Shown here: positions 3,946 to 26,221 of the stretch, piece by piece
Numbering within the stretch: position 1 is the first letter of the stretch
Layout of the letters: each line of letters starts with the position of its first letter
Virus record (IMG/VR): IMGVR_UViG_3300020577_010124
Span: 32,001 to 96,000 of that record
Source: a virus
Lineage: Duplodnaviria > Caudoviricetes
Direction: 5' to 3' (one strand)
Length of the DNA stretch: 64,000 bases
Position numbers and translations under genes: made by a program
Notes under the pieces: generated by a model
Told to the model about the DNA's origin: nothing
What the model saw: only the letters and a program-made list of their open reading frames with translations
The model's database searches: none

Positions 3946-3953
3946 GGAAATGC

Positions 3954-4988
3954 ATGACTTCTCAAGTAGACGTAACAGTTGAAATATCAACAAAAGACAG
4001 ATATTACACGACCTTGCCAATCGCTCTTGTTTCAGTAGCGAATCAAACATACAAGCCTAAAAAGGTTCTTGTTTTTGACGACGGAGAGGGAAAAGATCTT
4101 AGAGAAGATCCGCTTTATTCTAGTATCTTTGCCCTATATGCTTCTAAGAATATAGATCTAGTTGTTATGTTTGGGCAAAAGAAAGGCCAAGTTCATAATC
4201 ATCAGGGCGCTATTTCTTTAGCAACAACTGAATGGATTTGGCGAATAGACGACGACGATGCGCCTGAAGCAAATGTTCTAGAAAAAATGGTTCGTCATAT
4301 TCGAGACGACGTTGGAGCTATTAGCGGTTTAGTTCTTGTTCCAGGCGAGTTTAGCGAAGATATGGGAGAAGGGTCTGGTAAGATAGAAGATATTTTTACA
4401 AAGCCTCATATCCAATGGTTCAAGTTTTCAGGGGTCAAAGAAGTTGATCATCTAAATAATACCTTTCTATTTCGCAAATCAGCAGTTAAGCATGGTTATT
4501 GCATGGAGTTATCACCCGTAGGTCATAGAGAAGAGACTATGTTTACCTATGAGATAAAACTAGCAGGATACAAGCTTCTTGTTGATTCTGAGGCGGTCAT
4601 TTGGCATCTTCGTTCTCCGAAGGGTGGTATTCGATCTTATGAGCATGCATTCTTTTGGGACCATGACGAAAGAATATTCCAAAGAAAGCTTGAGGAGTAT
4701 GGGGTCAAATCGAAGCTAGAAAAACTTATTGTTTTAGATTGCGGACTTGGAGATCATTATGCTTTCAAAATGATGCTACCAGAAGTCAAAGAAAAATACA
4801 AAGACCAAAACCTTGTTCTAGCAGTATGTTATCCAGAAGTCTTTACTGACGAGAATGTAAGACTTATCTCAATTGCTGAAGCAAAGACTCTTGAGAAGAA
4901 TATGGATAAGCATAATGTCTATAAATTTATGATGGATAGAAATTGGACAGGTCGCCTTGTAGACGCATACAGAAAGATGATACTATGA
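3954..4988 (+). CDS. GT2 glycosyltransferase with a C-terminal GT9-like N-domain
   Basis: VTVEISTKDR, VLVFDD, RIDDDD (DxD), GHREET; C-terminal LDCGLGDH motif. Start moved to ATG 3954 (AAGGA RBS at 3944-3948). Confidence 0.8.
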   Translation: MTSQVDVTVEISTKDRYYTTLPIALVSVANQTYKPKKVLVFDDGEGKDLREDPLYSSIFALYASKNIDLVVMFGQKKGQVHNHQGAISLATTEWIWRIDDDDAPEANVLEKMVRHIRDDVGAISGLVLVPGEFSEDMGEGSGKIEDIFTKPHIQWFKFSGVKEVDHLNNTFLFRKSAVKHGYCMELSPVGHREETMFTYEIKLAGYKLLVDSEAVIWHLRSPKGGIRSYEHAFFWDHDERIFQRKLEEYGVKSKLEKLIVLDCGLGDHYAFKMMLPEVKEKYKDQNLVLAVCYPEVFTDENVRLISIAEAKTLEKNMDKHNVYKFMMDRNWTGRLVDAYRKMIL

Positions 4989-11773: not shown

Positions 11774-13056
11774 TGCAAAGAATCTATATTGAATATCAAA
11801 TATCTGGCGTTTATACCAATGCTTTCTCAGTAAAACTGGCTTCGGTTGACGGAACCTACGGTATCAAAAAGCAAGACGGTACAGTTATTGTAGCTAGTGG
11901 TACATCTGTATTAAATCCATCAACGGGTATTTATGAATACAGTTTTGAAGAAGATGAAAATATAACTTACACAGCTTCCTGGGAAATTGTTCCTATAGAG
12001 GGAGATCTTCCTGTATACTCAACTCAAACAGTTGGTCCATTTTCGCTAACAACTTCCGTAAAAGCTGTTGCGGATATGCGAGGAGAGTTTGTTCAAGGAA
12101 CAACAGGAACTTTATTTCTAAGCCTTGCAGACATACATAGCAATCCTATTACTGCTAGCTCAATTACAGTATCTATATCAAATGCTTCAGATGTTGTTGT
12201 TACCGAGGTATCTCCTGATTTTATCAAGTCTGGTTTTTATGCTTTTGATTGGGATGTTCCGACAACAATCGACCCAGGAGCTTATACTGTTACGTGGAGT
12301 TATACGGCAGATGGAATAAATAGCGTAGAGCTTCAAAGCATTATTGTATCTGCTCCAGGAGATTCAACATATGCTATGTCTCAAATGTATGGGGCAAGAA
12401 TAAGCGATCTTAGAACAGCTTTGACTCAGATGATTTGTTGTGCGCAAAAGATCCCTGTTTATCATGAAGAGGGAATTCCTGATGCTGATAATGTAAAGTT
12501 CAAATTTACATTCCCTCAGTGGAATCAAGCTTATGGAACTCGAATATATAGAAATAACAAACTTGTTGAGAATGGAATTTCTATTAACTACTTTCGAGGA
12601 TATGTTGTATTTGATGAAGCGGTTTCTGATTTTGATGTTATTCATGCAGATTACAATTTCCGTTGGTTCTCTGACGAAGACCTAGACAGATTTTTGTCTA
12701 ACGCATTGCATGTTATCAATTCGTATCCTGCTCAAACGCATTTCGATCTGTTCTATCTTCCAGATAACTATATTGCTGCGTTGCTTTATGGAGCAGCAAA
12801 AGACGCAATCAGAGAGTTGCTTATGTGCTTGCAGTTTCAGCAGCCTCAGCAAGTATTTGGTGGTTCAGAAGCTGCGCAAAAAGCCTTCTCAAACATGGAA
12901 ACTCTTAAGAAGAACTACGAAGAAGAATTCGTTAGACTCCTTGAAATCAAGAAGTTTGGAAAGTATCCTCGAATCAAGACCGTTACAGTGCCTGAGTTCA
13001 CTTTGCCAGGCGGACGTTCAAGATGGTTCAGATATATGTTTGGCGGCGGCTCATAA
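11773..13056 (+). CDS. putative head-tail adaptor/neck protein with N-terminal Ig-like domains
   Basis: Two beta-sandwich units (TGIYEYSF; SGFYAFDWDVP...GAYTVTWSY), then a helical FSDEDLDRFLSNAL...LLYGAA adaptor-like domain. Confidence 0.55.
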   Translation: MQRIYIEYQISGVYTNAFSVKLASVDGTYGIKKQDGTVIVASGTSVLNPSTGIYEYSFEEDENITYTASWEIVPIEGDLPVYSTQTVGPFSLTTSVKAVADMRGEFVQGTTGTLFLSLADIHSNPITASSITVSISNASDVVVTEVSPDFIKSGFYAFDWDVPTTIDPGAYTVTWSYTADGINSVELQSIIVSAPGDSTYAMSQMYGARISDLRTALTQMICCAQKIPVYHEEGIPDADNVKFKFTFPQWNQAYGTRIYRNNKLVENGISINYFRGYVVFDEAVSDFDVIHADYNFRWFSDEDLDRFLSNALHVINSYPAQTHFDLFYLPDNYIAALLYGAAKDAIRELLMCLQFQQPQQVFGGSEAAQKAFSNMETLKKNYEEEFVRLLEIKKFGKYPRIKTVTVPEFTLPGGRSRWFRYMFGGGS

Positions 13057-13073
13057 TAGCCGACAATATTGGT

Positions 13074-13451
13074 ATGGAAAACAAAAGCAAACCTACATCA
13101 AAAGAAATGCTCGAAAAGATGCGTAAGCTTGGCATAGACAAAGAGGTTGAATTCTACTTTGTTCCTTCTCAAGAATTGAGAAATAGAATTGCAAGAGGCG
13201 GAGATCCTATTCTTGATCAGCTTCCAGAATCTGCCAAGAAGATTATACTTACTTGCCCGCCAGGCAAAGGCATATCTCAATATAACCAAATGGTCTTGAA
13301 ATACATTGAGGGAACTCTTGATAAAAGAAACTCATACGTATTCGATCTTGGCGAGATTCGTGTGCAAAATGCTAACGAACTTATGATAAAATGTCTTAAC
13401 AGATCTGTCAATAACGAAATCAAAGGACTTACTTATAAACCGACCGAATAA
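13074..13451 (+). CDS. hypothetical protein
   Basis: Probable start at ATG 13074 (MENKSK...), 17 nt after the upstream stop; no RBS. Confidence 0.65.
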   Translation: MENKSKPTSKEMLEKMRKLGIDKEVEFYFVPSQELRNRIARGGDPILDQLPESAKKIILTCPPGKGISQYNQMVLKYIEGTLDKRNSYVFDLGEIRVQNANELMIKCLNRSVNNEIKGLTYKPTE

Positions 13452-13499
13452 GAAGTGCTAGGCGTACTAGTTTTATTGAGTAATTCCGAGATACATGCG

Positions 13500-13573
13500 G
13501 TGAGAAACCTTCCTGATTGCGAGTCCAATGATAGACCCGCACCCTTATAAAAAGGGTTAGGAAGGTTTTACAC
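13500..13573 (+). ncRNA. predicted three-way-junction structured RNA in the phoH leader
   Basis: P1 13500-13516/13557-13573 (17 positions, one mismatch); P2 13518-13525/13534-13541; P3 13542-13546/13552-13556. Folded by eye. Confidence 0.5.
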
Positions 13574-13610
13574 TTTAAGCATCCTCTATTTTTGTTTCAA
13601 AGGAGCGATA

Positions 13611-14426
13611 ATGGCAAGAAAATCAAAGCACAAGAAGGTCAACGATAGTTTTGTTATGGCCGAAAATAGCACTTCTAAATTGTTAGTTGCTGTCAGTGCA
13701 AGAAATGCTGGGCAGAAAAAAGCTCTTAAAGCTATTGCAGACAATCAAGTAACATTTCTATATGGAGCGCCAGGTACTGGCAAGACCCATTGTGCCGTAG
13801 GTTATGGTATTCAAGAAATGCTCAAGGGAACTTATGAGCGAGTCATTTTTACTAGACCCTATGTTGAAGCTGGTGAAAAGCTTGGATTTTTGCCAGGCGG
13901 ATTTGATAGTAAGTTTGCCCCTTTCGTTATGCCTCTATATGAAGTTGTTTCTGATTATCTTAGTCAAGATGAAATCAAAGCCATGATCGAAGATAAGCGA
14001 ATCATTGTCTATCCTCTTGCATATATGAGAGGAGCTACATTCAAAAAATCATTTATTGTTGCTGACGAAGTTCAGAACTCTACAATGCAACAGATGCGAA
14101 TGATGCTTACTCGTATCGGAGAAGGTACGAAGATTGTTTGCACGGGCGACGTAGAGCAGTCCGACCTTGGTTCAAGAGTAAATGGTTTGGCAGACGCTAT
14201 TGAGCGACTTCCTGGCGTTGAAAATCTAGAGTTTGTTGAGCTTGGTTATGATTCTTGCGTAAGAGAGAAGATTGTTTCTGATATTGACCGTAGATACAAG
14301 TCTAAGCCATTCCTTAGCGCTGACGATTTGGCTAAGATACAAGAAGAAAATCTTAAGAATAATGGTAAATATAGGTCTAATGCAGAAGAAGCTCTCGGAG
14401 ATAATGAGGGAGACGACTCAAACTGA
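13611..14426 (+). CDS. phoH: PhoH family ATPase
   Basis: GAPGTGKT Walker A, TRPYVEAGEKLGFLPG, LAYMRGATF, DEVQN, LTRIG, GDVEQSD; AAGGAG RBS. Confidence 0.96.
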   Translation: MARKSKHKKVNDSFVMAENSTSKLLVAVSARNAGQKKALKAIADNQVTFLYGAPGTGKTHCAVGYGIQEMLKGTYERVIFTRPYVEAGEKLGFLPGGFDSKFAPFVMPLYEVVSDYLSQDEIKAMIEDKRIIVYPLAYMRGATFKKSFIVADEVQNSTMQQMRMMLTRIGEGTKIVCTGDVEQSDLGSRVNGLADAIERLPGVENLEFVELGYDSCVREKIVSDIDRRYKSKPFLSADDLAKIQEENLKNNGKYRSNAEEALGDNEGDDSN

Positions 14427-14521
14427 CGATTTAAGAAAAGGCGCATTAGCCTCTCATTCCTGCAAGTCTTGAAGGAGTGAGAGCTTTTGCGTTGGAAGAG
14501 GTAGATAAGGAGAACAAGGGA

Positions 14522-17500
14522 ATGAAGGTTACTGACTTTTTCAAGCGAATCAAGGCCAGCCTATTTACGGAGGCTCAACTTCGTCGTTTTATCAACGACG
14601 ATATTCCTCTTAATCCAAAAGAGCCTTTTCCTGCAAAAACGCCGCCTGTTGTAAAAAAGCCAGCCCCTAAAGCTGTTGTTCCTTTTGCTCCAACTCCATA
14701 TGAGCCTATGCCTGCTCCTGCTAATAAACCAGCAGTCATGCCAAGTCCTCAAGTTGCTCCAATTTCGCAACCTCAACAAAGCCAACCAACAGAACAAGAG
14801 CTAACTCCTCGCCAACAACAGTTTGCGACTCTGTTGCAACGACTTTATGATAAAGAACTAAATAACGAACTCAATGGCCTTGATCCTATTGAAAAGGCTG
14901 AGTTTGATTATGACAACTTTAATCGCTCTTTCAAATCTAATGTTCTTCGAAAACTTCCGCCAGAAAACAGAGAAGACATGGTTGTTGCGATGGATGTCTT
15001 TTTGCAAAAACTCAACAAAGACCAAGGCGGTTTTAGTAAAAATGAAATCATGAGTCTTTTGAGAGACGGATATACAAATATTCTAAACTCTACAAAGCCA
15101 ACAAAAGACGGATCGCCTGATATCAAAAGCGTTCACAATAAGTTCTTGCGAGAGTTTGGAACGCAACCAACTTTCAAGCCGTATATACGAGAGTTTCTAG
15201 AGAATATTGCTAAAGAACAGATGCCAGGAGAATCTTCTCCTATTATGCGTCAAGTTGCTGTTCCTAATAAGTTCCCAGATCTAAGCGAACAAGTTGTTCG
15301 TGGTCTTATTTATTTTGAAGGCGCAGAGAAACTTCGAACATGGCCGCATTTCTTGCAAAATGAAAACAACGAGAAAATGCTCGACCGTATTGTTGAAGAT
15401 ATTGTCAAATCCGCCAACATCAATCGAGAGCAGCTTTCTACCAACTTCCTTCAATCGTATCTTGGCTTGGGCGGCGGTCAGTCTAATAACTCTCAGGCTA
15501 ACCTTCGACGCTTCTATCAGCTATTTATTGACAATAATCTGAAGGACAAGAATATTGATCCAGTAGAGATTCAGAGACGGCTCAACACCGTTGACCCTAA
15601 CTCTCCAAATCAGAGACTGGCTGTACATGATATTATCAAGTTTGTTAATAGCACTCTATTCATGCCCGACAAGTATGGCAAAGAATATATTGTCAAGTAT
15701 ATGCTTTCCAGAAAACCTGGCGAGCTACGAAAAATCCTTAAGCAAAATGGCGCAACTCCAGAAGATATCGCTTCTATTATGACGGTACAAGGGGAAGAAG
15801 GTCAAGAGCAGGTCCAGATACGCAAAGACCAAGGTATCAATACAAGCAGAAATCAACAAGTTGTTCGTCCATATTTGAAGCCAATCTCAGAATATATTGA
15901 TACTCTCATAACTTCTCAAGATGAAGACTTCTTTGATTGGTGTGCAACAGAAGCCTATCGAGATTATGGTAGAGGTATGCAATCTATAACCAGAAACGCT
16001 CCAAGAACTAAGGGAGAAAATGGCGAGGATATTGCCTACGACTTTGCAGACGAAGATCAGCATGGTTTTGGAGATGATTCTGATGATGTTGACAATGATA
16101 GAGACGAGTTTGCAGAACAAAACAGTCTTGGCGAAGACGAGGGCGAAGAAGACGTTAAGAGAGTTATGTCTAATGAAGGTCTTCCTGCCGAGGAAGTTGT
16201 TCCAGACGAAAATGCAACAGTTAAGCCAGAACAACTAACAAGTTTCTTTGACAACTACAAGAAGATTAGAGCTTTGTATGGCGATATAGCAACTGCTATG
16301 GACCGACAGTATTTGTCTTCTTTATCTAAGATGTCTGCTGCTCCTCAAGCAAAAACTGACGAGGAAGGCGGAGAGGAAGAGGGCGGCGGTAGTGTTTCTA
16401 GAGAATCATTGTTGACCATTCTGCAAAAGCAGGCACTATACAAAATGCTTTTCAGTCTTTCGGACAAGCGCATGGCTGATTTTTTCGGAACGTCACACAA
16501 TGGTATTCCTGTTACGGATACTCGTCTTCTTTCTATTATCAATCAAGATTGGAATGAACTAGTTAGACCATATGACTTGGCAAAAGAATTAGATCTAACC
16601 ATGAACAATCCGATCATCGCTCAAACTGTACAGAGAGCTTTGAATGACGGTTTAGGATTGGCTGGCGGCAAGACGCAAAGCAATACTCCCGAAGGAATGT
16701 ATCGAGCGATATTTGGAGATCCAGGCAAGCAAGACGCTGCTAATCTAACAGTCAGAATGTGGATTCGTTTGAATAACTTTGAAAACTTGTTATTGAGTCC
16801 TGAGATTGCGGGTAAACATGGAAAAGAAGCTTTGGTTTCTTTCCTTGATATGGTTGGTATGGACAAGAGAGTTATTCGCTTGGGTTCTTTGCTTTCTAAG
16901 AGTAATGCTGCTGGTATAAATGACAAGATTGAATACTTGACCGAACTTGTTAGAAGAGGTTCTATAACCGATTTTACCGAGGACCAAATAGAGAACATGA
17001 GCATAGACGAGCTTTCGTCTGTGTTTGGTCGTGTACGTAGAGAACTAGAAGGTTTCTATGGAAACTCGGCGATGAAGCGTCAGGCTATTATGGATAGTCC
17101 TACGATTACAGATCAAGATATTGCAGAAGTCGGAGCTTCGCTAGGAATACGATCTAAGAAAGATTTCCAGAATGCTCCAACTGCTAAAGCAAATGCTGTT
17201 ATCAAAGGCATATATACTTCTGACCGATACGAAAAAATCAAGATGCAAACAGAAGAAGACGAAAGCCTTCGTACATATTTGAAAAACGGAATTAAGAAGA
17301 GAAGTGAAACGGACGAGGCTATTCTTCCTAAGCTTGGACTAGATACTTACTTGGATATTGATAATCTACCAGGACGTAGAGTTCAGCAGATAGCTCAAGT
17401 CTACTATCCTGACGTTTATCAAGCTTTTAGAGCAGGGAAGCTCAAGTCCGTTGGAGAGAGCGCAAAGCCTCTAGAGAATACGTTTAAGAAGACACTTTCA

Positions 17501-18034
17501 AGCTATGTATCTGCTAATCCAAAACTACTTCAAGTATTGGGCTATCCTTCTATGGACGAGTTCAATGATTTCTTGAAGAAGTCAACGGGAGACGATCTAT
17601 CAAAGCCAATGGAGAAGATTTTGTCTCGTAGCGGCGAGCTTGAACAAATGAAGCCAGGCCCATTGCGAGAGGTTATGAATACTTACAACAGATACTTGTC
17701 TGTTAGAGACTTCTCGCAGAATCCTGACCAAGCAAGACTTGGCGTTGCTTTGAAGCATCATATCCACAACAACTTGATAAAGCCTGACGAAACAAAGGGT
17801 TCGGTTCCTACAGGAATGTTGAATCAAGCTCTTGTCTTTGCTAAGATTCTTGATCTTCCAAAGAAGCAAGTTGCGGCCAAACTCAGAATGCTTAGTTTGA
17901 AAAAGATTGCATCACAAAAGCGCTATAATGCTCTCGTTCAATTGAGGTACCGATTTGCTCAGCGTAGTGTCGATACAACTATGCTAGACCAACTGATAGC
18001 GAAAGTGCTTGAAGATGCCAGAAGATTCGACTAA
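14522..18034 (+). CDS. large hypothetical protein (1170 aa; possible internal head protein)
   Basis: Long ORF; likely start ATG 14522 after AAGGAG. Pro/Gln-rich N-terminal linker, acidic central tract, otherwise helical. Confidence 0.7.
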   Translation: MKVTDFFKRIKASLFTEAQLRRFINDDIPLNPKEPFPAKTPPVVKKPAPKAVVPFAPTPYEPMPAPANKPAVMPSPQVAPISQPQQSQPTEQELTPRQQQFATLLQRLYDKELNNELNGLDPIEKAEFDYDNFNRSFKSNVLRKLPPENREDMVVAMDVFLQKLNKDQGGFSKNEIMSLLRDGYTNILNSTKPTKDGSPDIKSVHNKFLREFGTQPTFKPYIREFLENIAKEQMPGESSPIMRQVAVPNKFPDLSEQVVRGLIYFEGAEKLRTWPHFLQNENNEKMLDRIVEDIVKSANINREQLSTNFLQSYLGLGGGQSNNSQANLRRFYQLFIDNNLKDKNIDPVEIQRRLNTVDPNSPNQRLAVHDIIKFVNSTLFMPDKYGKEYIVKYMLSRKPGELRKILKQNGATPEDIASIMTVQGEEGQEQVQIRKDQGINTSRNQQVVRPYLKPISEYIDTLITSQDEDFFDWCATEAYRDYGRGMQSITRNAPRTKGENGEDIAYDFADEDQHGFGDDSDDVDNDRDEFAEQNSLGEDEGEEDVKRVMSNEGLPAEEVVPDENATVKPEQLTSFFDNYKKIRALYGDIATAMDRQYLSSLSKMSAAPQAKTDEEGGEEEGGGSVSRESLLTILQKQALYKMLFSLSDKRMADFFGTSHNGIPVTDTRLLSIINQDWNELVRPYDLAKELDLTMNNPIIAQTVQRALNDGLGLAGGKTQSNTPEGMYRAIFGDPGKQDAANLTVRMWIRLNNFENLLLSPEIAGKHGKEALVSFLDMVGMDKRVIRLGSLLSKSNAAGINDKIEYLTELVRRGSITDFTEDQIENMSIDELSSVFGRVRRELEGFYGNSAMKRQAIMDSPTITDQDIAEVGASLGIRSKKDFQNAPTAKANAVIKGIYTSDRYEKIKMQTEEDESLRTYLKNGIKKRSETDEAILPKLGLDTYLDIDNLPGRRVQQIAQVYYPDVYQAFRAGKLKSVGESAKPLENTFKKTLSSYVSANPKLLQVLGYPSMDEFNDFLKKSTGDDLSKPMEKILSRSGELEQMKPGPLREVMNTYNRYLSVRDFSQNPDQARLGVALKHHIHNNLIKPDETKGSVPTGMLNQALVFAKILDLPKKQVAAKLRMLSLKKIASQKRYNALVQLRYRFAQRSVDTTMLDQLIAKVLEDARRFD

Positions 18035-18227
18035 GACAGAAGAGGCTCCGATACCTAGATTTGTGTTTGTCTGCGCCTTTTGCAGATCCCATGATAGCTC
18101 TCCGTCTATTGAGTTCAACTTTGGCGATGCCAAGGTTTATAGCTATTGCAAATCATGCAAGAAGATGAATGAGATGGACTTCTCAAAGACGATGCCTTCT
18201 TCATATCCAAAACCAAGGCGAATATGA
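18015..18227 (+). CDS. small zinc-ribbon protein
   Basis: CAFC...CKSC pair of CxxC motifs in 70 aa. Confidence 0.65.
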   Translation: MPEDSTKTEEAPIPRFVFVCAFCRSHDSSPSIEFNFGDAKVYSYCKSCKKMNEMDFSKTMPSSYPKPRRI

Positions 18228-18228
18228 G

Positions 18229-18822
18229 ATGTACATAATCAAAAATATATCAGCAAGCGAAGTAACACTAAATGATCTTCATATTATGCTTGGCAAGGGC
18301 GAGCAGGTAGATGTTGATATGGTTTGCTCTCGTTATATAGCTGAGCAATCCGCCATTCTCAAACAAAACATAAGATCAGGCGCTTTGAGAGTTATAATGA
18401 AGGACGACCATAGAGGTACGGTCCAGATCAAAACCGCAGAATACGCTCCTCCGCCTCCTCCAATGGTTCATAAGCAAGATAACAGCGATGTTATTGACGC
18501 GGTAAAGCAGCTTGAAGCAAAGCTTGAAAAACGATTGGAAGAGAAAGTTACGGCTGCTCAACAGCAACAGCCTCAAATAGACCCAGCTTTACTTTCTCAA
18601 GCGCTTGCAGCTATTCAAGGCCTTGTCAATCAAGCAGGAAAGGCTGTTCCTTCTAAGGAAGAAAACCCCTCGGAAGAGGTTAGCGAGAGAGTTGTAGACA
18701 TACATAAAAGAACCTTGGACAGATTGGCAGGAAATGCTCAAAGTAATGTAAAACATACAGAGCAAATATCCGATAATAGTAGTGTACAAAAGAATATTGA
18801 CGAACTCGAAGGACTGCTGTGA
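18229..18822 (+). CDS. coiled-coil protein (candidate actin partner/adaptor)
   Basis: Start ATG 18229; small N-terminal domain, PPPPP linker, heptads VIDAVKQLEAKLEKRLEEKV, C-terminal helix VQKNIDELEGLL. Confidence 0.65.
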   Translation: MYIIKNISASEVTLNDLHIMLGKGEQVDVDMVCSRYIAEQSAILKQNIRSGALRVIMKDDHRGTVQIKTAEYAPPPPPMVHKQDNSDVIDAVKQLEAKLEKRLEEKVTAAQQQQPQIDPALLSQALAAIQGLVNQAGKAVPSKEENPSEEVSERVVDIHKRTLDRLAGNAQSNVKHTEQISDNSSVQKNIDELEGLL

Positions 18823-19643
18823 AAGACGAAGAAATTTACAAACAATTAGAAGAACTATGCAAAGATCGAATAACCATAATATCTCATTGTGGATACGATA
18901 AGGAAGGCCAATTTATTAGTTGGTCTGATCTATTTAATCATTCGGTTTTTGACGGCATGATGCTTTCTGATGGATATATAGAAAAAAGATCCGAATCTAG
19001 TTCTGCAAGATTTAGATTATCTTGTAAATATGAAGAATTTGCTCGATGCTTTGCGAATTATACAGGAATAGGTAAGAATATAAATTTAGCATCACATAGT
19101 TACTCTGATAAGAGAACAAATAAAACATATACTGGATATCGTTTAGATTCTAAATCAAATTATGAATTTGTTTTGCAACATACTCGATGGTACCCGAATG
19201 GAAAGAAAATTGTGCCGAGAGACATAATTTTGGATAGAACTACGTTATTATGGTGGTATCTTGGCGACGGTCATTTGAATAAAAAGAAGGCTAGACCAAA
19301 TTATAGACGAGTTGTATTATCTACTCAAGGATTTGTTAATGAAGATATTGATTTTCTAAAATCTAAAGTTGTCGAAAAATTTGGCGAAGATTCTGTCTAC
19401 ATAGAAAACCGAAATATAATCATTGGAAGAAAAGCTCTTTGTAAATTCGCAAAAGAAATGGGCAACAAAAGTCCAGTAAATTGCTACCAGTACAAGTTTG
19501 ATTTTGGGCCATATGTTGATGAAAACTATTGGGAAAAGAGTTTTGAGGATAGACCGCTGAAGTACATAAATGAATACAGACGAAAGAATAAAGTTAGAGA
19601 GTTAAAGTATACAGAGAAAAGGGAGATTAGTCATGATAAGTAG
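18819..19643 (+). mobile_element. free-standing double-motif LAGLIDADG homing endonuclease
   Basis: Motif 1 FDGMMLSDGYI, motif 2 LLWWYLGDGHL, with WYPNGKKIVP and LSTQGF as in LAGLIDADG_2 proteins; AT-rich; overlaps both neighbours. Confidence 0.88.
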
Positions 19644-20706
19644 AGTGGTAGGAGCCGACATCGGCACGATGTTTTTTCAGGTTGCCGAGATGGAGAATGG
19701 TAACTTAAAAGTAAAGAACACAAGAAATGCTTTTGTCGAGCTTCCAAAGACAGACGACGTTGAAGATACCCTTCAGCGAAACAACTGGCAATATATCAAA
19801 GACGGAGATAGCTATTTCGTAGTCGGAGAGGACTGCGTAAAGGTTGCCAATATTTTTCCAGGCAAAGTTGAAATTCGTCGGCCAATGGCTGACGGAGTTT
19901 TGAACAAGAATGAAGATAAGAAGCTTATTGTTCTTGCTGAACTTGTAAAAGCTTCTATTGGGCAAGCTCCCGACGACAACTCATGGGTATGTACATGCGT
20001 TAGCTCTGATTCGGTAGACGGATCGGCTGATTCTACATTCCATAGAAATCGAGTTATGGCGTTGTTCACTCGTCTTGGCTGGAAGGTCAAGGTTATTGAA
20101 GAGGCTCATGCTGTTATTCTAAGCGAAAGGCCAACGATTGTTGAGGAAGACGGAACGATTGTTCCTTACTCTGGCATCGGTGTAAGTTTTGGCGCTGGAC
20201 GAGCCAACTGCTTGCTGGCCTATAAGGGCTTGCCTGTTATTGGAATGAGCGTTGCTCGAAGCGGCGATTGGATTGATAAGCAAGTCTTTGAGCAGACAGG
20301 AGTTGCTATATCGCAAATCATCTCTGCCAAGGAAAGAAAGCTTGATTTTGACGCTCTAGACGATAGCGACGACGTAGTTTTTGCTCTTAATGCATACTAT
20401 GACGCAATGATTGAATATGTCTTCAAACATTTCGGTAAAAAGTTCCAAGAAGTAAAGAGTCAGTTTAACCAACCCCTTGATATTGTAGTCGCTGGCGGAA
20501 CCTCGATGCCTAAAGGTTTTTGTCAGAAACTAGAGAAAATAGTAATGGGTCTTAATCTGCCTTTCAAAGTCAAGGAAGTCAGACACGCAAAAAGTCCAAG
20601 GAATGCCGTAGTTGAAGGTTTGCTAGCTCAAGCAATGATAACTCAAAAGAAAGAGTCGCAGAACCTTCCGCAAGCTCAAGACCCAATTGATAAACTCTTG
20701 ACTTGA
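19633..20706 (+). CDS. actin-fold ATPase, volactin-like
   Basis: Phosphate-1 GADIGT, connect-1 IEEAHA, phosphate-2 GVSFGAG, ARSGDWID, adenosine VVAGGTS, connect-2 NAVVEG; GGGAG RBS. Confidence 0.88.
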   Translation: MISRVVGADIGTMFFQVAEMENGNLKVKNTRNAFVELPKTDDVEDTLQRNNWQYIKDGDSYFVVGEDCVKVANIFPGKVEIRRPMADGVLNKNEDKKLIVLAELVKASIGQAPDDNSWVCTCVSSDSVDGSADSTFHRNRVMALFTRLGWKVKVIEEAHAVILSERPTIVEEDGTIVPYSGIGVSFGAGRANCLLAYKGLPVIGMSVARSGDWIDKQVFEQTGVAISQIISAKERKLDFDALDDSDDVVFALNAYYDAMIEYVFKHFGKKFQEVKSQFNQPLDIVVAGGTSMPKGFCQKLEKIVMGLNLPFKVKEVRHAKSPRNAVVEGLLAQAMITQKKESQNLPQAQDPIDKLLT

Positions 20707-20718
20707 CGAGAAAGCTAA

Positions 20719-21447
20719 ATGGGATATGCAACTCCACAACAAGTATACGACATCATAGCTCAGTCTCTTACCAGTGCAACTAATAGAGTCGTAAACGGGC
20801 AGCCTGTCCCCCTTGTAAATTTCGGTAGAGCCAAAGATAGCAACACTATCCCTGATAGCGTTGTCTATCAGGCTATAAGCTGGGCAAGCGACCAAATCGA
20901 CGCTGGCATAAGCGAGCTATACGTTACTCCGTTGTGCGAAAAGACAGATCTTGAAATAAGACTTCTTGCTGACATCGATCCTTATAATGACGCAATCAAT
21001 GTTACTAAGGCTACAGTCCTAAATCCTGGCGATACTTTGGTATTTATTGATTCCTTGGGAGAAGAGCGTCATATTGTCAGCGCTGTTACCGACGCAAATA
21101 CCATTGAGCTAGCCGAACCAATCTTGGGTATCTACCATAAAGAAACAACGAGGATCTTGCGAGTAAAGTTTCCTCCAAGTGTAAATCTGATGTGCGCTAG
21201 ACTTGCCGCGGCAAATCTCTACGATAAGTATTTTTCTGCGCAAGCAAATCCAGATAAGACTGAATACGGCAAGACTCTTAGAGGTTGGGCTTTGTCAGAT
21301 CTCAATTCTGTTATCAATGGTATCATTATTCTCAACGGTCAGAAGAGAATAGGGCGTAGATTCTACAATCCAAATCTTAGCGATCGTTATGGCCTACCTC
21401 CATTGGATAAGGACTTCAACATCAAGATGGACGGAGGAGATAGATGA
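20719..21447 (+). CDS. head-tail connector (Mu gp36/DUF1320-like) with an inserted beta domain
   Basis: MGYATPQQV start, AISWASDQIDA..LY..PL, PPSVNLMCARLAAANLY. Confidence 0.7.
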   Translation: MGYATPQQVYDIIAQSLTSATNRVVNGQPVPLVNFGRAKDSNTIPDSVVYQAISWASDQIDAGISELYVTPLCEKTDLEIRLLADIDPYNDAINVTKATVLNPGDTLVFIDSLGEERHIVSAVTDANTIELAEPILGIYHKETTRILRVKFPPSVNLMCARLAAANLYDKYFSAQANPDKTEYGKTLRGWALSDLNSVINGIIILNGQKRIGRRFYNPNLSDRYGLPPLDKDFNIKMDGGDR

Positions 21448-21683
21448 AAAACGATCTCTCTAAGTTTATTGGAGCTATAGACCAAGTGGCTCGGTTGAAC
21501 GGCAAGGAAATACGAGACAATATTTTTTCGCAAAAGACTGTGATTAGCAAAACTCCCGAAGAGGCCATGAAGAGAGCAGCCTACGAGGACTATCTTAAGA
21601 CAGGAAAGGCTCATTCGGTTGAGCATGCAAGAGAGATATGCGACGAGTTTATTAGAGACGTTTTGAAGAAGGCAACTGAATGA
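21444..21683 (+). CDS. hypothetical protein
   Basis: 79 aa; GGAG RBS; ATGA overlaps on both sides. Confidence 0.65.
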   Translation: MKNDLSKFIGAIDQVARLNGKEIRDNIFSQKTVISKTPEEAMKRAAYEDYLKTGKAHSVEHAREICDEFIRDVLKKATE

Positions 21684-22585
21684 TTGACATACTTGAAAGC
21701 GTAAGAAGAACGGTTTACCGTTGGGTCAATACGACTGTCCCTCTAACGACAGACGCAGCCTTTGGCGGTACTACGCTCAAAGTAACTTCTTCTAATCGCT
21801 TTCGAGTTGGCGACGAGGTTGCTTTGCATGACGGAGTAAATGGAGAGCCAGGCCTTCGTATCGCAGAGATTCCAGATCGTAATACAATCATACTAGAAAG
21901 TCCTATCAAGACGATTGCGGGTTGGAGATCTACCGCAAACGGAATGCTTACCAAGACCTATGACGGTCAGTTTATTCAAGCTATCTACATTGGCGAGCCA
22001 GACGTTATTCCAGCCTATCCAGCTATTACTATCATGGGGCAGAAGAGAACGTCCGAATGGTTTACTCTTGAAACTACCAAAGAGAGATACAGCCTACAGA
22101 TTGTTATTTATGCGCACAACGATAATCATGAAGCTGCCTACAGAATGGTTTCGCAAATCGCTAATATCATTCAGCTTGGCTTGAAAAAGAACGTTTTCCC
22201 TCTTGTTGGTCCATATGAAACGGTAAACGTTATTGCCGACGTAAACGGCGGAGACGAGTTTATCAAGGTGGCTGACTCTTCTAAGTTCCAATGCGAGAAC
22301 AAGATTCTTCTTGAGAACCGCTATCGAGCAGAAGAGCTTCGAGTAGCAGAAATTGTTGATCCAACGACTATTCGAGTTTGGCCTAATCCATACAATGACT
22401 TTCTTGTAAGCGAGCAGACTAAGGCGATTATCCTAAGTCGCTTTATCTACAATTCTTGGCCTAGCGATATTGATTACGGATTCAAGTACAAAGGTACATT
22501 GCTTCATGCAGCAAGCATTTCTTGGTTCGCGGAAGAACAGGAAATACAGACTCGTCATGGATGGTCGGACCCTCAACTCTCATAA
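21680..22585 (+). CDS. putative tail terminator/completion protein with two inserted beta modules
   Basis: IYIGEPDVIPAYPAITI...YSLQIVIY core; located between connector and tube genes. Confidence 0.6.
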   Translation: MIDILESVRRTVYRWVNTTVPLTTDAAFGGTTLKVTSSNRFRVGDEVALHDGVNGEPGLRIAEIPDRNTIILESPIKTIAGWRSTANGMLTKTYDGQFIQAIYIGEPDVIPAYPAITIMGQKRTSEWFTLETTKERYSLQIVIYAHNDNHEAAYRMVSQIANIIQLGLKKNVFPLVGPYETVNVIADVNGGDEFIKVADSSKFQCENKILLENRYRAEELRVAEIVDPTTIRVWPNPYNDFLVSEQTKAIILSRFIYNSWPSDIDYGFKYKGTLLHAASISWFAEEQEIQTRHGWSDPQLS

Positions 22586-25156: not shown

Positions 25157-26221
25157 ATGCCTATTCCAACCGCATCAATGGGCTTTATGGGTTCCGTCCG
25201 TTTTAACGGCGGTACTATAGGCCAGGAAATTCTCGTAAGAGCCTTATCTTGCGATATTAGAGCAAAGCAAGATATTGATTATCCAGACGTTGTTGATAGT
25301 CGTATTGACAATACTCTATATCAAATTAAGCCAAGAATCGTTGAAGGCAACTGCGAACTCCCCCTCGTTCATGAAGGCATCGCCACTGGAACAAGCAAGG
25401 CTTGCAACCCAGCAAATAATCTAGCTAAGAGACTTTGGGAAATTGCGGCAAAGAGAGATCAAACAGGTAGACTTGTAAATCAATTCAACGTTGACGTTCG
25501 TTATACAGACAATACAGCGTACAGATATCCAAATTGCATCATAAACTCAATGAAGGTCAGCATTACCCAATCTGACTTCGTTAAGATCAACTTCAATGTT
25601 ATGGGTGGAGCTAACGTCACCGACAGCGTTCGAGAGGCCTTGACAACTGACCGCGACCCAACTTTCCTAGCACCTGCTCGTATCGTTACATGGAATGACT
25701 TTAGAATAAACGTTTTCATTCAAGAAGCGGGAATTACCCTTCCAGGTTCATATATACGTTCCTTTGATGTTGAACTTAACAACAATGCAGATCGTTTCTA
25801 TACCTTGAACGGCAAACTAGTTCCACAGGATATTACTGCTCGTAAGAGAACCATATCGGGCAACCTTGCTCTTATGGGTTTCTCTGCTAAGCAGTTCCAC
25901 GATTTCATTTATAACAATCAGTCCCGCTATACTTCTCAATCTAAGATTGCATTTGGTTATACGCTTGGAAGCGCTACCATCCCATATTGGGCTACGGCGC
26001 TTTGGGGCGTTATCTTCCAAATCGAGGAAGTCCAAATTGGTAACGATATAATCGAAACCAGAATACCATTTAGAGCGCTTGGAGACTGCGAGAACGATTA
26101 CGAAGCAATCTCACTCGGAGCGGACAACCAGAGCGTAGATACTGCCCCAACCAACGGTTCGTTTGGCGGTCCTACTGCTCCAACTTACTTCCGCCCACTT
26201 ACATCTTTCAATCCGCTATAA
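25157..26221 (+). CDS. major tail tube protein
   Basis: Two beta-rich halves (RIVEGNCEL; IRSFDVELNNN...RTISGNLAL); AGGAG RBS; lies upstream of the chaperones and tape measure. Confidence 0.8.
   Translation: MPIPTASMGFMGSVRFNGGTIGQEILVRALSCDIRAKQDIDYPDVVDSRIDNTLYQIKPRIVEGNCELPLVHEGIATGTSKACNPANNLAKRLWEIAAKRDQTGRLVNQFNVDVRYTDNTAYRYPNCIINSMKVSITQSDFVKINFNVMGGANVTDSVREALTTDRDPTFLAPARIVTWNDFRINVFIQEAGITLPGSYIRSFDVELNNNADRFYTLNGKLVPQDITARKRTISGNLALMGFSAKQFHDFIYNNQSRYTSQSKIAFGYTLGSATIPYWATALWGVIFQIEEVQIGNDIIETRIPFRALGDCENDYEAISLGADNQSVDTAPTNGSFGGPTAPTYFRPLTSFNPL

What the first reader, a model, noticed from the sequence alone, without database searches (positions are those of the whole stretch)
18015..20706. 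Phage-encoded volactin-like actin with a coiled-coil partner and Zn-ribbon gene inside the morphogenesis region
Seen: a full actin-fold ATPase with an atypical phosphate-2 loop (SFGAG instead of DxGxG) plus RNAFVE, VVGED, ANIF, RRPM.DG, ARSGDWID and GGTS.P.GF motifs. From memory, this motif set matches the haloarchaeal disk-shape actin volactin better than MreB, ParM or FtsA. It follows a Zn-ribbon gene and a coiled-coil gene and directly precedes head-tail connector genes. Established: jumbo phages use tubulin PhuZ, and some phages use the actin AlpC, to position DNA or capsids. Inference: an undescribed actin-based positioning or transport system for capsids or viral factories, with 18229-18822 as the adaptor.
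Basis: partly seen in the sequence, partly recalled or inferred. Interest (0 to 1): 0.8.

Follow-up and report, generated by a model that had tools for sequence, protein, structure and literature searches.

The report
Megaphage volactin-type actin with partner
A fragment of a roughly half-megabase uncultured phage related to Bacillus phage G carries, between its head and neck genes, its own actin-like protein of the "volactin" family and a dedicated partner protein, so these giant phages probably build actin filaments while they assemble virions; I found no paper that describes this.

Summary
ORF 19633-20706 (357 aa) is a full-length member of Pfam Volactin (212 bits; MreB 21 bits, below its cut-off). 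Its model (pLDDT 95) is closest to filament-forming actins (MamK Z 29, BeeR, MreB). "SFGAG" is not atypical: it is the family hallmark and is also present in a Haloferax volactin ortholog.

It is present in only 6 of 18 related loci.

The order Zn-ribbon, 197-aa partner, actin, head-tail adaptor recurs in about 20 related huge-phage contigs. The partner's N-terminal domain also lies just upstream of the actin in a second, deeply diverged phage clade (hhalign 94.6%; 42 of 81 loci, never downstream). The actin is the most conserved gene of the module, and relatives carry inteins at three or more sites in its nucleotide-binding loops.

Filament formation and cargo are inferred, not shown. Capsid or virion-intermediate positioning is my leading guess. 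Bacterial family members lie in gas-vesicle clusters, which fits a MamK-like positioning role.

This scan has already noted the same system on other DNA (136 notes, at least 114 genomes). I found no description in the literature.

The parts
19633..20706 (+). Volactin-family actin-fold ATPase (357 aa), the core of the system
   Evidence: It matches Pfam PF25216 at E 1.9e-62 over the full length. The AF2 model has pLDDT 95.2 and pTM 0.92. The best structural matches are MamK at Z 29.0 (rmsd 2.7 A over 297 residues) and BeeR at Z 28.4. It falls in a phage-only clade with 100* support inside the family. It is the most conserved gene of the module, with mean identity 74%.
18229..18822 (+). 197-aa partner or adaptor candidate. 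It has an N-terminal alpha/beta domain (1-60), a disordered Pro-rich linker (61-84), four helices and a conserved C-terminal ...ELEGLL.
   Evidence: The AF2 model has pLDDT above 90 for residues 1-60 and helices at 85-112, 119-137, 150-171 and 183-196. A homolog lies directly upstream of the actin in all related loci and in L101 and L103 (E 6e-17 and 5e-13). The N-domain matches the -1 partner family of a second phage clade (hhalign Prob 94.6, E 6.8e-8). A joint HMM finds the domain only upstream of the actin, in 42 of 81 loci.
18015..18227 (+). Small Zn-ribbon protein (70-72 aa), a conserved companion of unknown role
   Evidence: The CxxC...CxxC pattern is invariant, and the gene is found in 16 of 17 related loci immediately upstream of the partner gene. 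It has only a weak hit to Zn_ribbon_Elf1.
18819..19643 (+). Free-standing LAGLIDADG homing endonuclease (274 aa). It is a mobile insertion between the partner and actin genes and is not part of the system.
   Evidence: It matches PF03161 at E 6e-18 and phrog_11023 at E 2e-20. It is present in the window, L002, L003, L005, L006 and L014 and absent from the other loci, where partner and actin are about 15 nt apart. Its GTG start overlaps the partner's stop codon, and its 3' end carries the actin gene's ribosome-binding site AAGGGAG.
20719..21447 (+). 242-aa probable head-tail adaptor, starting 12 nt after the actin gene
   Evidence: Eight of 12 family members hit phrog_195 'head-tail adaptor' (best E 7e-6). 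There is a weak hit to Phage_Mu_Gp36. The gene is syntenic in all relatives.
14477..18034 (+). 1185-aa conserved upstream protein of unknown function. It diverges fast and its end overlaps the Zn-ribbon gene's start.
   Evidence: It has no Pfam, PHROG, NCBIfam or Atlas match. It is 24-32% identical in relatives whose actin is about 80% identical.
13611..14426 (+). PhoH-like ATPase, the conserved left border of the module
   Evidence: It matches PF02562 at E 2.3e-66 and is syntenic in the relatives and in L103.
21680..22585 (+). 301-aa conserved neck-region protein of unknown family
   Evidence: It is syntenic in all relatives at 41-79% identity and has no family match.
25157..26221 (+). Tail tube protein, which marks the module as virion morphogenesis
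   Evidence: It matches PF18906 Phage_tube_2 at E 5.8e-13 and phrog_290 at E 1.3e-13. The same family lies a few genes downstream of the actin in the distant phages L101, L103 and L104.

Best explanation
Shown:
- The window is part of a phage-G-like megaphage of roughly 500 kb.
- It encodes an intact volactin-family actin with the family's complete nucleotide-binding signature.
- The actin gene abuts or overlaps the genes around it in a same-strand block that runs into the neck and tail genes.
- A 197-aa protein is always encoded just upstream. Its N-terminal domain is tied to phage volactin genes across deep divergence.

Inferred:
- Late in infection the actin binds ATP and polymerises into dynamic filaments, as haloarchaeal volactin does in vivo and as its nearest structural relatives MamK, MreB and BeeR do.
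- The 197-aa protein, probably as a coiled-coil dimer, links the filament to a phage-specific target. One end would hold the actin and the other the target.
- I cannot say which end does which. In the rest of the family the actin-side element appears to be the partner's C-terminal helix.

Most likely purpose (the weakest step): positioning or moving very large, poorly diffusing assembly intermediates, such as capsids of about 0.5-Mb genomes. This would be a MamK/MamJ-like or PhuZ-like job done with an actin.

The Zn-ribbon protein is a constant companion of unknown role. The LAGLIDADG gene is a selfish insertion.
For: Family membership and fold:
- establish the Volactin hit, the conserved motifs and the fold.
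- The family separates from MreB and a MamK-like outgroup with 99* support. The window lies in a phage-only clade with 100* support.
- Volactin forms dynamic filaments in vivo (PMC10869688, read).

Selection:
- The actin is the most conserved gene of the module: 74% mean identity against 62% for the tail tube.
- Inteins sit at three or more sites in the phosphate-2 and GDWID loops of relatives. Inteins are typical of indispensable, conserved sites (own knowledge).

Gene linkage:
- Synteny holds in 17 + 2 related contigs.
- It also holds in L101, L103 and L104, whose actins are 36-45% identical, with the adaptor and tail tube downstream.
- The partner's N-domain is conserved next to the actin in a second phage clade (Prob 94.6; 42 of 81 loci; always upstream).
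- A partner gene upstream of the actin with a conserved C-terminal helix is family-wide. It is seen as the haloarchaeal CdpA-like neighbour in 62 loci, as bacterial upstream ORFs, and in the phage 222-aa family (PMC12126565).

Co-expression:
- Genes abut or overlap from 14477 to 22585, and no intergenic terminator was found before 26266.

Positioning analogy:
- Bacterial family members lie in gas-vesicle gene clusters.
- MamK is the closest solved structure.

Distribution:
- At least 570 IMG/VR contigs carry the family.
Against: - No experiment exists for any phage member. Polymerisation, ATPase activity and partner binding are all inferred.
- The phosphate-2 Asp and the Thr of the GGGT motif are replaced (S185, R/M190, N192), so hydrolysis chemistry may differ from that of MreB and actin.
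- The window's 197-aa protein does not carry the strict family-typical C-terminal motif D..A..AL(K/R).L(R/K). Its similarity to the haloarchaeal tail is only P 0.014.
- Within the phage-G-like clade every neighbouring gene is syntenic, so adjacency alone does not single out the partner.
- The cargo is unknown.
- The cultured relative, phage G, has no detectable homolog, so the system is not universal among these phages.
- Late timing is inferred from gene position only.
Confidence: 0.6

Rival explanations
1. DNA positioning or segregation system of the ParM/ParR or AlpC/AlpA type. The actin filaments would move or anchor phage genomes, either replication factories or a pseudolysogenic episome. 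The Zn-ribbon and/or the 197-aa protein would be the DNA-binding adaptor.
For: - Known phage and plasmid actins do this: AlpC/AlpA of prophage CGP3 (PMC4446434, listed), and ParMRC and salactin (PMC10869688).
- A Planctomycetota family member is fused to a ParB-type HTH (P0058).
- A Zn-ribbon protein is a constant neighbour here. A different Zn_ribbon_8 protein is a constant neighbour in the LR745208-type cassette.
Against: - No centromere-like iterated repeats lie anywhere in 13000-21500.
- The genes are tightly packed inside the late structural block rather than forming a stand-alone cassette.
- No DNA-binding domain was detected in the 197-aa protein.
Confidence: 0.17
2. Host-cell remodelling. 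The phage actin would reshape or enlarge the infected cell or its envelope, in line with volactin's role in cell shape, for example to make room for very large virions or to organise lysis.
For: - The founding member acts in cell-shape transition (PMC10869688).
- The haloarchaeal partner is a membrane protein, the CdpA-like HVO_2016 (PMC12126565).
- Other phage clades have small single-TM proteins at -1.
- A bacterial member is fused to a Wzz/GNVR/BY-kinase envelope module (P0089).
Against: - In this clade the partner has no transmembrane segment. Its anchor is a soluble 58-aa domain.
- The gene sits with neck and tail genes rather than with lysis or host-takeover genes.
Confidence: 0.13
3. 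A non-polymerising actin-fold ATPase that works as an assembly chaperone for head-tail joining, like the Hsp70 homologs of closteroviruses. The 197-aa protein would be an unrelated morphogenesis factor, for example a scaffold or chaperone.
For: - The gene sits immediately before the head-tail adaptor across distant phages.
- The altered phosphate-2 loop might change ATPase behaviour.
- Viral Hsp70 homologs appear among the BFVD fold matches.
- The 197-aa protein has a scaffold-like helical build.
Against: - The best sequence and fold matches are all polymer-forming actins: MamK Z 29, BeeR, MreB and actin.
- It has no substrate-binding domain.
- The same loop occurs in volactin, which polymerises.
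- The partner-actin pair persists in a second clade where the other neighbours are not homologous.
Confidence: 0.08

Closest known systems
Volactin (VolA, HVO_2015) of Haloferax volcanii; Pfam PF25216 (Schiller et al. 2024, PMC10869688)
   Same: - Same Pfam family, matched full length at 212 bits.
- Same signature motifs, including S-F-G-A-G-x-x-N, GDWID and GGTSxPxGF.
- A dedicated partner gene lies directly upstream of the actin.
   Different: - About 30% identity. The window lies in a separate phage-only clade, not nested among the haloarchaeal sequences.
- It is encoded by a phage-G-like megaphage inside the neck/tail operon.
- The partner is soluble (58-aa N-domain plus helices) rather than a 4-TM CdpA-like protein.
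- Its role is unlikely to be cell shape.
MamK with its adaptor MamJ (magnetosome chain positioning)
   Same: - MamK is the closest solved structure (5ljv Z 29.0, rmsd 2.7 A over 297 residues; profile E 1.3e-14).
- The logic is the same: an actin plus an adaptor that positions a large body.
- Bacterial volactin homologs lie in gas-vesicle clusters, which suggests a similar job.
   Different: - It is not a MamK family member. NCBIfam MamK scores 21.9 bits against a cut-off of 400.
- The adaptor is different.
- The phosphate-2 loop lacks the Asp.
AlpC/AlpA of Corynebacterium glutamicum prophage CGP3 (Donovan et al. 2015, PMC4446434)
   Same: Both are a phage-encoded actin-like protein with a small adaptor encoded beside it.
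   Different: - AlpC serves viral DNA replication and transport, through an adaptor that binds DNA.
- Here no centromere-like repeats or DNA-binding domain were found, and the genes are in the structural module.
- The Volactin profile did not ring in the C. glutamicum control genome. I do not know whether that control strain carries CGP3.
PhuZ tubulin of nucleus-forming jumbo phages (PMC4244570, PMC9067925)
   Same: Both are cytoskeletal polymers encoded by very large phages. PhuZ positions the replication compartment and delivers capsids, which is the functional precedent for the proposed role.
   Different: - PhuZ has the tubulin/FtsZ fold, not the actin fold, and is a GTPase.
- It occurs in a different phage lineage (Chimalliviridae).
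- No partner gene of this kind is known for it.
ParM/ParR/parC type II plasmid partition
   Same: Both have an actin-like ATPase plus an adaptor. ParR's C-terminal helix plugs into the ParM filament end (own knowledge), which is a model for how the partner's conserved helix could work.
   Different: - There are no parC-like repeats.
- The gene order is reversed, with the partner upstream.
- The actin belongs to a different family.
- The genes are embedded in a late operon.

Membership tests
Volactin family (Pfam PF25216) | Full-length match to the family profile above the curated cut-off (35 bits) | tested here: met
   The match scores 212.1 bits (E 1.9e-62) over profile positions 3-321 of 321. 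Whole-contig search gives 211.8 bits.
Volactin family (Pfam PF25216) | Family signature residues: D-x-G-T (phosphate 1), S-F-G-A-G-x-x-N (phosphate 2), E157 in INE(A/G), GDWID, KE and GGTSxPxGF | tested here: met
   All are present. D9, G11, H137, G187, G189, K233, G288 and G289 are invariant in 90 members. S185 is found in 88 of 90 and N192 in 89 of 90. The Haloferax gibbonsii ortholog has the same motifs.
Volactin family (Pfam PF25216) | Four-subdomain actin fold, closest to filament-forming actins | tested here: met
   The AF2 model has pLDDT 95.2. The top matches are MamK Z 29.0, BeeR 28.4, MreB 26-28 and actin about 26, and all 50 top matches are polymer-forming actins.
Volactin family (Pfam PF25216) | Groups with volactins rather than MreB or MamK in a tree | tested here: met
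   The family separates from four MreB sequences and a MamK-like sequence with 99* support. This was a quick LG+G4 tree of 91 rows.
Volactin family (Pfam PF25216) | Orthology with haloarchaeal VolA (same clade, and hence the cell-shape role) | tested here: not met
   The window lies in a phage-only clade (14 rows, 100*). Haloarchaeal sequences lie in a separate 55-row clade (100*).
Volactin family (Pfam PF25216) | Dynamic ATP-dependent polymerisation | not testable with these tools
   This is known only for H. volcanii volactin in vivo (PMC10869688). No multimer prediction or biochemistry was available here.
Volactin family (Pfam PF25216) | Upstream partner gene ending in the helix motif D..A..AL(K/R).L(R/K). 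This is a feature I derived here; it is not a published definition. | tested here: inconclusive
   A partner gene is present upstream. The strict motif is seen in haloarchaeal, bacterial and 222-aa phage partners. It is not seen in the window's 197-aa protein, which has VDIHKRTLDRL and ...ELEGLL. hhalign against the haloarchaeal tail gives P 0.014.
MreB (PF06723) | Profile score above the gathering cut-off (27 bits) | tested here: not met
   The score is 21.2 bits. NCBIfam MreB PRK13927 scores 15.1 bits against a cut-off of 293.
MamK (NCBIfam NF040964) | Profile score above the cut-off (400 bits) | tested here: not met
   The score is 21.9 bits. MamK is the structural nearest neighbour only.
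ParMRC-type partition system | Centromere of iterated repeats next to the operon | tested here: not met
   Only short two- or three-copy chance-level repeats occur in 13000-21500.
ParMRC-type partition system | DNA-binding adaptor (RHH or HTH) | tested here: inconclusive
   The 197-aa protein has no Pfam, PHROG or NCBIfam domain. The fold search was uninformative (Z 4.5 or below). The Zn-ribbon could bind nucleic acid, but this was not tested.
AlpC/AlpA (CGP3 prophage actin) | Sequence membership in the AlpC family | not tested
   No AlpC reference sequence was available through the tools. The only indirect hint is that the Volactin profile did not ring in the C. glutamicum control genome.

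The most novel reading that the evidence does not exclude
Volactin-type actins may be a general prokaryotic system for positioning large protein-shelled bodies. In bacteria the bodies would be gas vesicles. In huge phages they would be capsids or other virion intermediates, which the phage's own actin filaments would actively move or array through a modular adaptor. The adaptor would have a variable anchor domain, a linker and an actin-binding helix. This would be the first actin-based virion-assembly cytoskeleton in bacteria, parallel to PhuZ but widespread (at least 570 viral contigs).
Probability: 0.3. Interest if true: 0.85.

Novelty: new variant of a known kind. Interest (0 to 1): 0.7.

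Why it matters
Phage-built cytoskeletons are so far known mainly from the PhuZ tubulin of nucleus-forming jumbo phages and from one prophage actin, AlpC. Here an actin family with one characterised member, from a haloarchaeon, turns out to be common in huge phages. At least 570 IMG/VR contigs carry it, as do hundreds of protein clusters.

Three further features stand out:
- The actin is the most conserved gene of its module.
- Its nucleotide-binding loops are targeted by inteins and homing endonucleases.
- It always travels with a modular partner protein.

If the filaments position capsids or assembly sites, this would explain how virions too large to diffuse in bacterial cytoplasm get assembled. 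It would also give a simple two-protein system to reconstitute.

The partner's architecture across archaea, bacteria and phages also suggests a testable general rule for how volactins are coupled to their cargo.

Tried and rejected
- **Actin as a capsid-gene replacement.** I considered this because the gene occupies the slot just before the adaptor. I rejected it because the major capsid protein is elsewhere, at contig 3482-4384 (phrog_2522 E 3e-65; 52% identical to phage G gp27).
- **Homolog in phage G or another cultured phage.** tblastn against 50,697 phage records found none, even at E below 1. Only the two uncultured huge phages LR745208 and LR756511 matched, at 27-28% identity.
- **Fold of the 197-aa partner.** The PDB-wide search gave only generic helices (Z 4.5 or below). 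The weak N-domain matches (YqbF 2hjq and a ribosomal protein, both Z 4.0) are not usable. The Atlas gave only viral hypothetical clusters.
hhalign gave P 0.13 and 0.3, and the N-domain HMM hits only the partner itself in the 170-kb contig, with the glycosyltransferase at E 2.9.
- **BLASTP of the partner against the LR745208 upstream protein.** This found nothing. Profile-profile comparison against the whole family was needed.
- **The 1185-aa protein.** It has no match in Pfam, PHROGs, NCBIfam or the Atlas.
- **Homology between the free-standing LAGLIDADG and the endonuclease domains of the inteins.** None was found (best E 0.21).
- **Neighbours in the LR745208-type cassette (464, 189 and 401 aa).** They have no family annotation and no profile similarity to the window's adaptor or 301-aa protein.
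- **First genome scan with the 90-sequence alignment.** It failed because no stretch was conserved enough. Taxon names are not accepted as search centres.
- **Context of three further representatives.** The contigs were too short to be informative.

Full report
**What is there.** All long ORFs of the window lie on the + strand. The window is bases 32001-96000 of a 170,562-bp IMG/VR virus record. CheckV rates the record 34% complete, which implies a genome near 500 kb. Its major capsid protein lies 47 kb upstream of the actin, at contig 3482-4384. It matches phrog_2522 (E 3e-65) and is 52% identical to gp27 of Bacillus phage G, a 497.5-kb phage. The element is therefore a phage-G-like megaphage.

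The gene order in the finding is as follows:

| Coordinates | Product |
|---|---|
| 13611-14426 | PhoH |
| 14477-18034 | 1185-aa protein of unknown function |
| 18015-18227 | Zn-ribbon protein |
| 18229-18822 | 197-aa protein |
| 18819-19643 | LAGLIDADG homing endonuclease |
| 19633-20706 | actin |
| 20719-21447 | 242-aa probable head-tail adaptor |
| 21444-21683 | 79-aa protein |
| 21680-22585 | 301-aa protein |
| 25157-26221 | tail tube (after several further genes) |

Neighbouring genes abut or overlap. The consensus scan found no intergenic terminator on the + strand before 26266. The block looks like one late transcription unit, but this is inferred from layout only.

**The actin.** The 357-aa product matches Pfam Volactin over its whole length (E 1.9e-62, 212 bits). 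MreB_Mbl reaches 21 bits, below its cut-off. NCBIfam MamK and MreB models are far below theirs. No PHROG matches.

An alignment of 90 family members shows invariant D9, G11, H137, G187, G189, K233, G288 and G289. It also shows near-invariant T12, R83-P84, E157, S185, N192, G211-D212, D215 and E234. Ser is present in 88 of 90 members, and a Haloferax gibbonsii volactin ortholog reads GVSFGAGMTN.

The AlphaFold model is confident (pLDDT 95.2, pTM 0.92). By VIA-align it is closest to the following:
- the MamK filament subunit (Z 29.0, rmsd 2.7 A over 297 residues);
- BeeR (Z 28.4);
- Mbl/MreB (Z 26-28);
- eukaryotic actin (Z about 26).

No sugar kinase or Hsp70 appears among the top 50. A family profile finds MamK as the best solved relative by sequence (E 1.3e-14).

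**Where the family occurs.**
- A full HMMER scan of 1.84 billion representatives gave 810 clusters at E below 1e-3 and 202 below 1e-30.
- The closest relatives are unnamed metagenomic proteins on contigs up to 467 kb.
- Pattern scans found 17 close loci in IMG/VR on contigs up to 498 kb.
- In cellular genomes there were at least 554 hits. Most are Halobacteria. The rest are scattered bacterial MAGs: Omnitrophota, Acidobacteriota, Patescibacteria, Chloroflexota, Aerophobota, Nitrospirota and Clostridia.
- Among 50,697 GenBank phage records, only two uncultured huge phages carry it (LR745208 and LR756511, 27-28% identity). Phage G does not.

A quick maximum-likelihood tree of 91 rows separates the family from MreB and a MamK-like sequence with 99* support. 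The window falls in a phage-only clade (14 rows, 100*). The bacterial clade (98*), the archaeal clade (98*) and the LR745208/LR756511 phages fall in a separate 55-row clade (100*). The protein is a family member but not an ortholog of haloarchaeal VolA.

**Conserved context.** In all 17 close loci, and in 2 more found through the partner, the order is PhoH, large protein, Zn-ribbon, partner, actin, adaptor, 301-aa protein, GT4, tail tube. The Zn-ribbon gene was detected in 16 of the first 17 loci.

In three much more distant phages, whose actins are 45%, 40% and 36% identical, the actin again directly precedes a protein of about 240 aa, with Phage_tube_2 a few genes on. One of these phages reads TAG as Gln.

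The actin is the most conserved gene of the block. Mean identities over ten loci are given below:

| Gene | Mean identity |
|---|---|
| Actin | 74% |
| Tail tube | 62% |
| 301-aa protein | 62% |
| Adaptor | 58% |
| Zn-ribbon | 52% |
| Partner | 39% |
| 1185-aa protein | 27% |

**The partner.** The 197-aa protein is predicted to have the following parts:
- a well-folded alpha/beta domain (1-60, pLDDT above 90);
- a disordered Pro-rich linker (61-84);
- four helices.

Two segments are strongly conserved: VDIHKRTLDRL and the C-terminal ...(D/E)ELEGLL. It has no known family and no informative fold match. Homologs lie immediately upstream of the actin in L101 (E 6e-17) and L103 (E 5e-13).

I clustered the neighbours of 81 phage loci. 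The LR745208-type phages have their own conserved cassette: 464 aa, 189 aa, a partner of about 222 aa, the actin, an unrelated gene, 401 aa, then a Zn_ribbon_8 protein.

Only one of those neighbours is related to anything in the window. The 222-aa family shares the N-terminal domain of the 197-aa protein (hhalign Prob 94.6%, E 6.8e-8, residues 2-58). A joint HMM of that domain hits 42 of 81 loci. The hits are always upstream on the same strand (31 at -1, 8 at -2, 2 at -3, 1 at -5) and never downstream. In the window's own 170-kb contig it hits only this gene.

This partner-actin pair persists while everything else changes. That is the best evidence that the two proteins work together.

**A family-wide partner rule (a lead, partly tested).**
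- In H. volcanii, volactin lies next to HVO_2016, a CdpA-like protein with four TM segments, a linker and a small C-terminal domain (PMC12126565).
- I found that neighbour in 62 haloarchaeal loci. It has the conserved tail VDDQTAALxELR.
- Bacterial upstream ORFs end in DVHKAIQALKNLR, DIAEAVAALRKLK, DVQQAIRALKSLR and DNAVEALKKAQK.
- The phage 222-aa family ends in DDAASALKALRK, and a small single-TM family ends in ETAKLSSLKKKKG.
- The haloarchaeal tail against the 222-aa phage tail gives hhalign P 8e-5.
- A strict regular expression hits 16 of 81 ORFs at -1 and 3 of 77 at -2, against 2 of about 750 other ORFs.

The partner therefore looks modular: a variable anchor (four TM, one TM or a soluble domain), a linker and a probable actin-binding helix. 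The window's partner fits the architecture but not the strict motif (P 0.014 against the haloarchaeal tail). Which of its ends touches the actin stays open.

**Selfish elements.** It is present in 6 of 18 loci. Where it is absent, partner and actin are 15 nt apart. Where it is present, its start overlaps the partner's stop codon and its end supplies the actin gene's ribosome-binding site.

Many relatives of 700-800 aa are actins split by inteins (Intein_splicing/Hint plus LAGLIDADG or HNH domains). The inteins occupy at least three sites:
- after S185;
- after GAGMxN;
- before GDWID.

The inteins and the free-standing endonuclease are unrelated to each other. Inteins usually sit in conserved sites of indispensable proteins (own knowledge), which fits the strong conservation of this actin.

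**Function.** Family membership, the intact signature, strong purifying selection, the partner linkage and the position in the morphogenesis block are shown. Polymerisation is inferred from the family's one studied member and from the nearest structural relatives.

The purpose is the weakest step. I favour positioning or transport of large assembly intermediates, for three reasons:
- The cassette keeps its place next to the neck genes in distant phages.
- There are no centromere-like repeats.
- Bacterial family members sit inside gas-vesicle gene clusters (GvpA, GvpL/F), which suggests a MamK-like positioning role for large protein-shelled bodies.

The rivals are DNA positioning (ParB-HTH fusion P0058; Zn-ribbon neighbours), host envelope or shape remodelling (membrane-anchored partners elsewhere; Wzz/BY-kinase fusion P0089) and a non-polymerising chaperone.

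**Novelty.** Searches of the paper library for volactin, and for actin with megaphage, huge phage or jumbo phage, found no description of a phage volactin. The kind of system is known: phage-built cytoskeletons (PhuZ, AlpC) and actin-plus-adaptor systems. This family in phages, its adaptor and its place in the virion module are new.

This scan has already recorded the same system many times on other DNA (136 notes in at least 114 genomes). Those notes agree with my reading, but they are not independent evidence.

Noticed in passing
window 18819-19643: A free-standing LAGLIDADG homing endonuclease is inserted exactly between the partner and actin genes. It overlaps both and carries the actin gene's ribosome-binding site. 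It is present in only 6 of 18 related loci, so it is a mobile element.
   Followed up: yes
relatives P0001, P0003, P0004, P0009, P0013-P0015, P0030, P0042, P0044, P0047, P0050, P0060, P0064, P0074, P0096, P0136, P0149: Phage volactin genes are split by inteins (with LAGLIDADG or HNH domains) at three or more different sites in the nucleotide-binding loops: after S185, after GAGMxN and before GDWID. I know of no inteins reported in actin-family proteins (own knowledge).
   Followed up: partly
L022, L024, L026, L030 (bacterial MAG loci): Bacterial volactin-family genes lie inside gas-vesicle gene clusters, next to GvpA (PF00741), GvpL/GvpF (PF06386, some fused to DnaJ) and DnaK-like genes. This suggests an actin that positions gas vesicles.
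   Followed up: partly
L027-L098 (haloarchaea), L023/L024/L026/L057 (bacteria), L146-L189 (phages): The gene just upstream of volactin-family actins ends in a shared helix motif D..A..AL(K/R).L(R/K), while its N-terminal anchor varies: four TM segments, one TM segment or a soluble domain. This may be the family's actin-binding peptide.
   Followed up: partly
L101 and L102 (NCBI GCA_040384165.1 contig; Logan SRR26324621): A relative with a 45% identical actin and the same cassette translates correctly only with TAG read as Gln, so it is a recoded megaphage.
   Followed up: no
P0016, P0052, P0058, P0083, P0089: The family shows unusual architectures. P0016 has two Volactin-profile matches in tandem. 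By BLAST, P0052 also shows two actin-like stretches, while only one was seen in P0083. P0058 is a ParB-HTH plus volactin fusion from a Planctomycetota MAG. P0089 is a volactin plus Wzz/GNVR/ParA-like BY-kinase fusion from a Planctomycetota MAG.
   Followed up: no
window 20650-20706 and 18790-18822: In the window and some relatives the actin ends in an acidic-hydrophobic tail (DPIDKLLT) that resembles the partner's tail (IDELEGLL). In L101 the two tails are GIDDII and DIEDII. They may compete for, or share, a docking site.
   Followed up: partly
contig 3482-4384 (L106), outside the window: The major capsid protein is 52% identical to Bacillus phage G gp27. About 47 kb of glycosylation and fibre genes separate the head genes from the neck genes. 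Phage G itself has no detectable volactin homolog, although its Gp506 has an actin-like fold (BFVD match, TM 0.56).
   Followed up: partly
L099 9107-9547 and 20 other loci at +2 to +5: In the LR745208-type cassette a Zn_ribbon_8 (FmdB-like) protein is a conserved downstream neighbour. In the window's clade a different Zn-ribbon lies upstream. The recurrence may or may not be meaningful.
   Followed up: no
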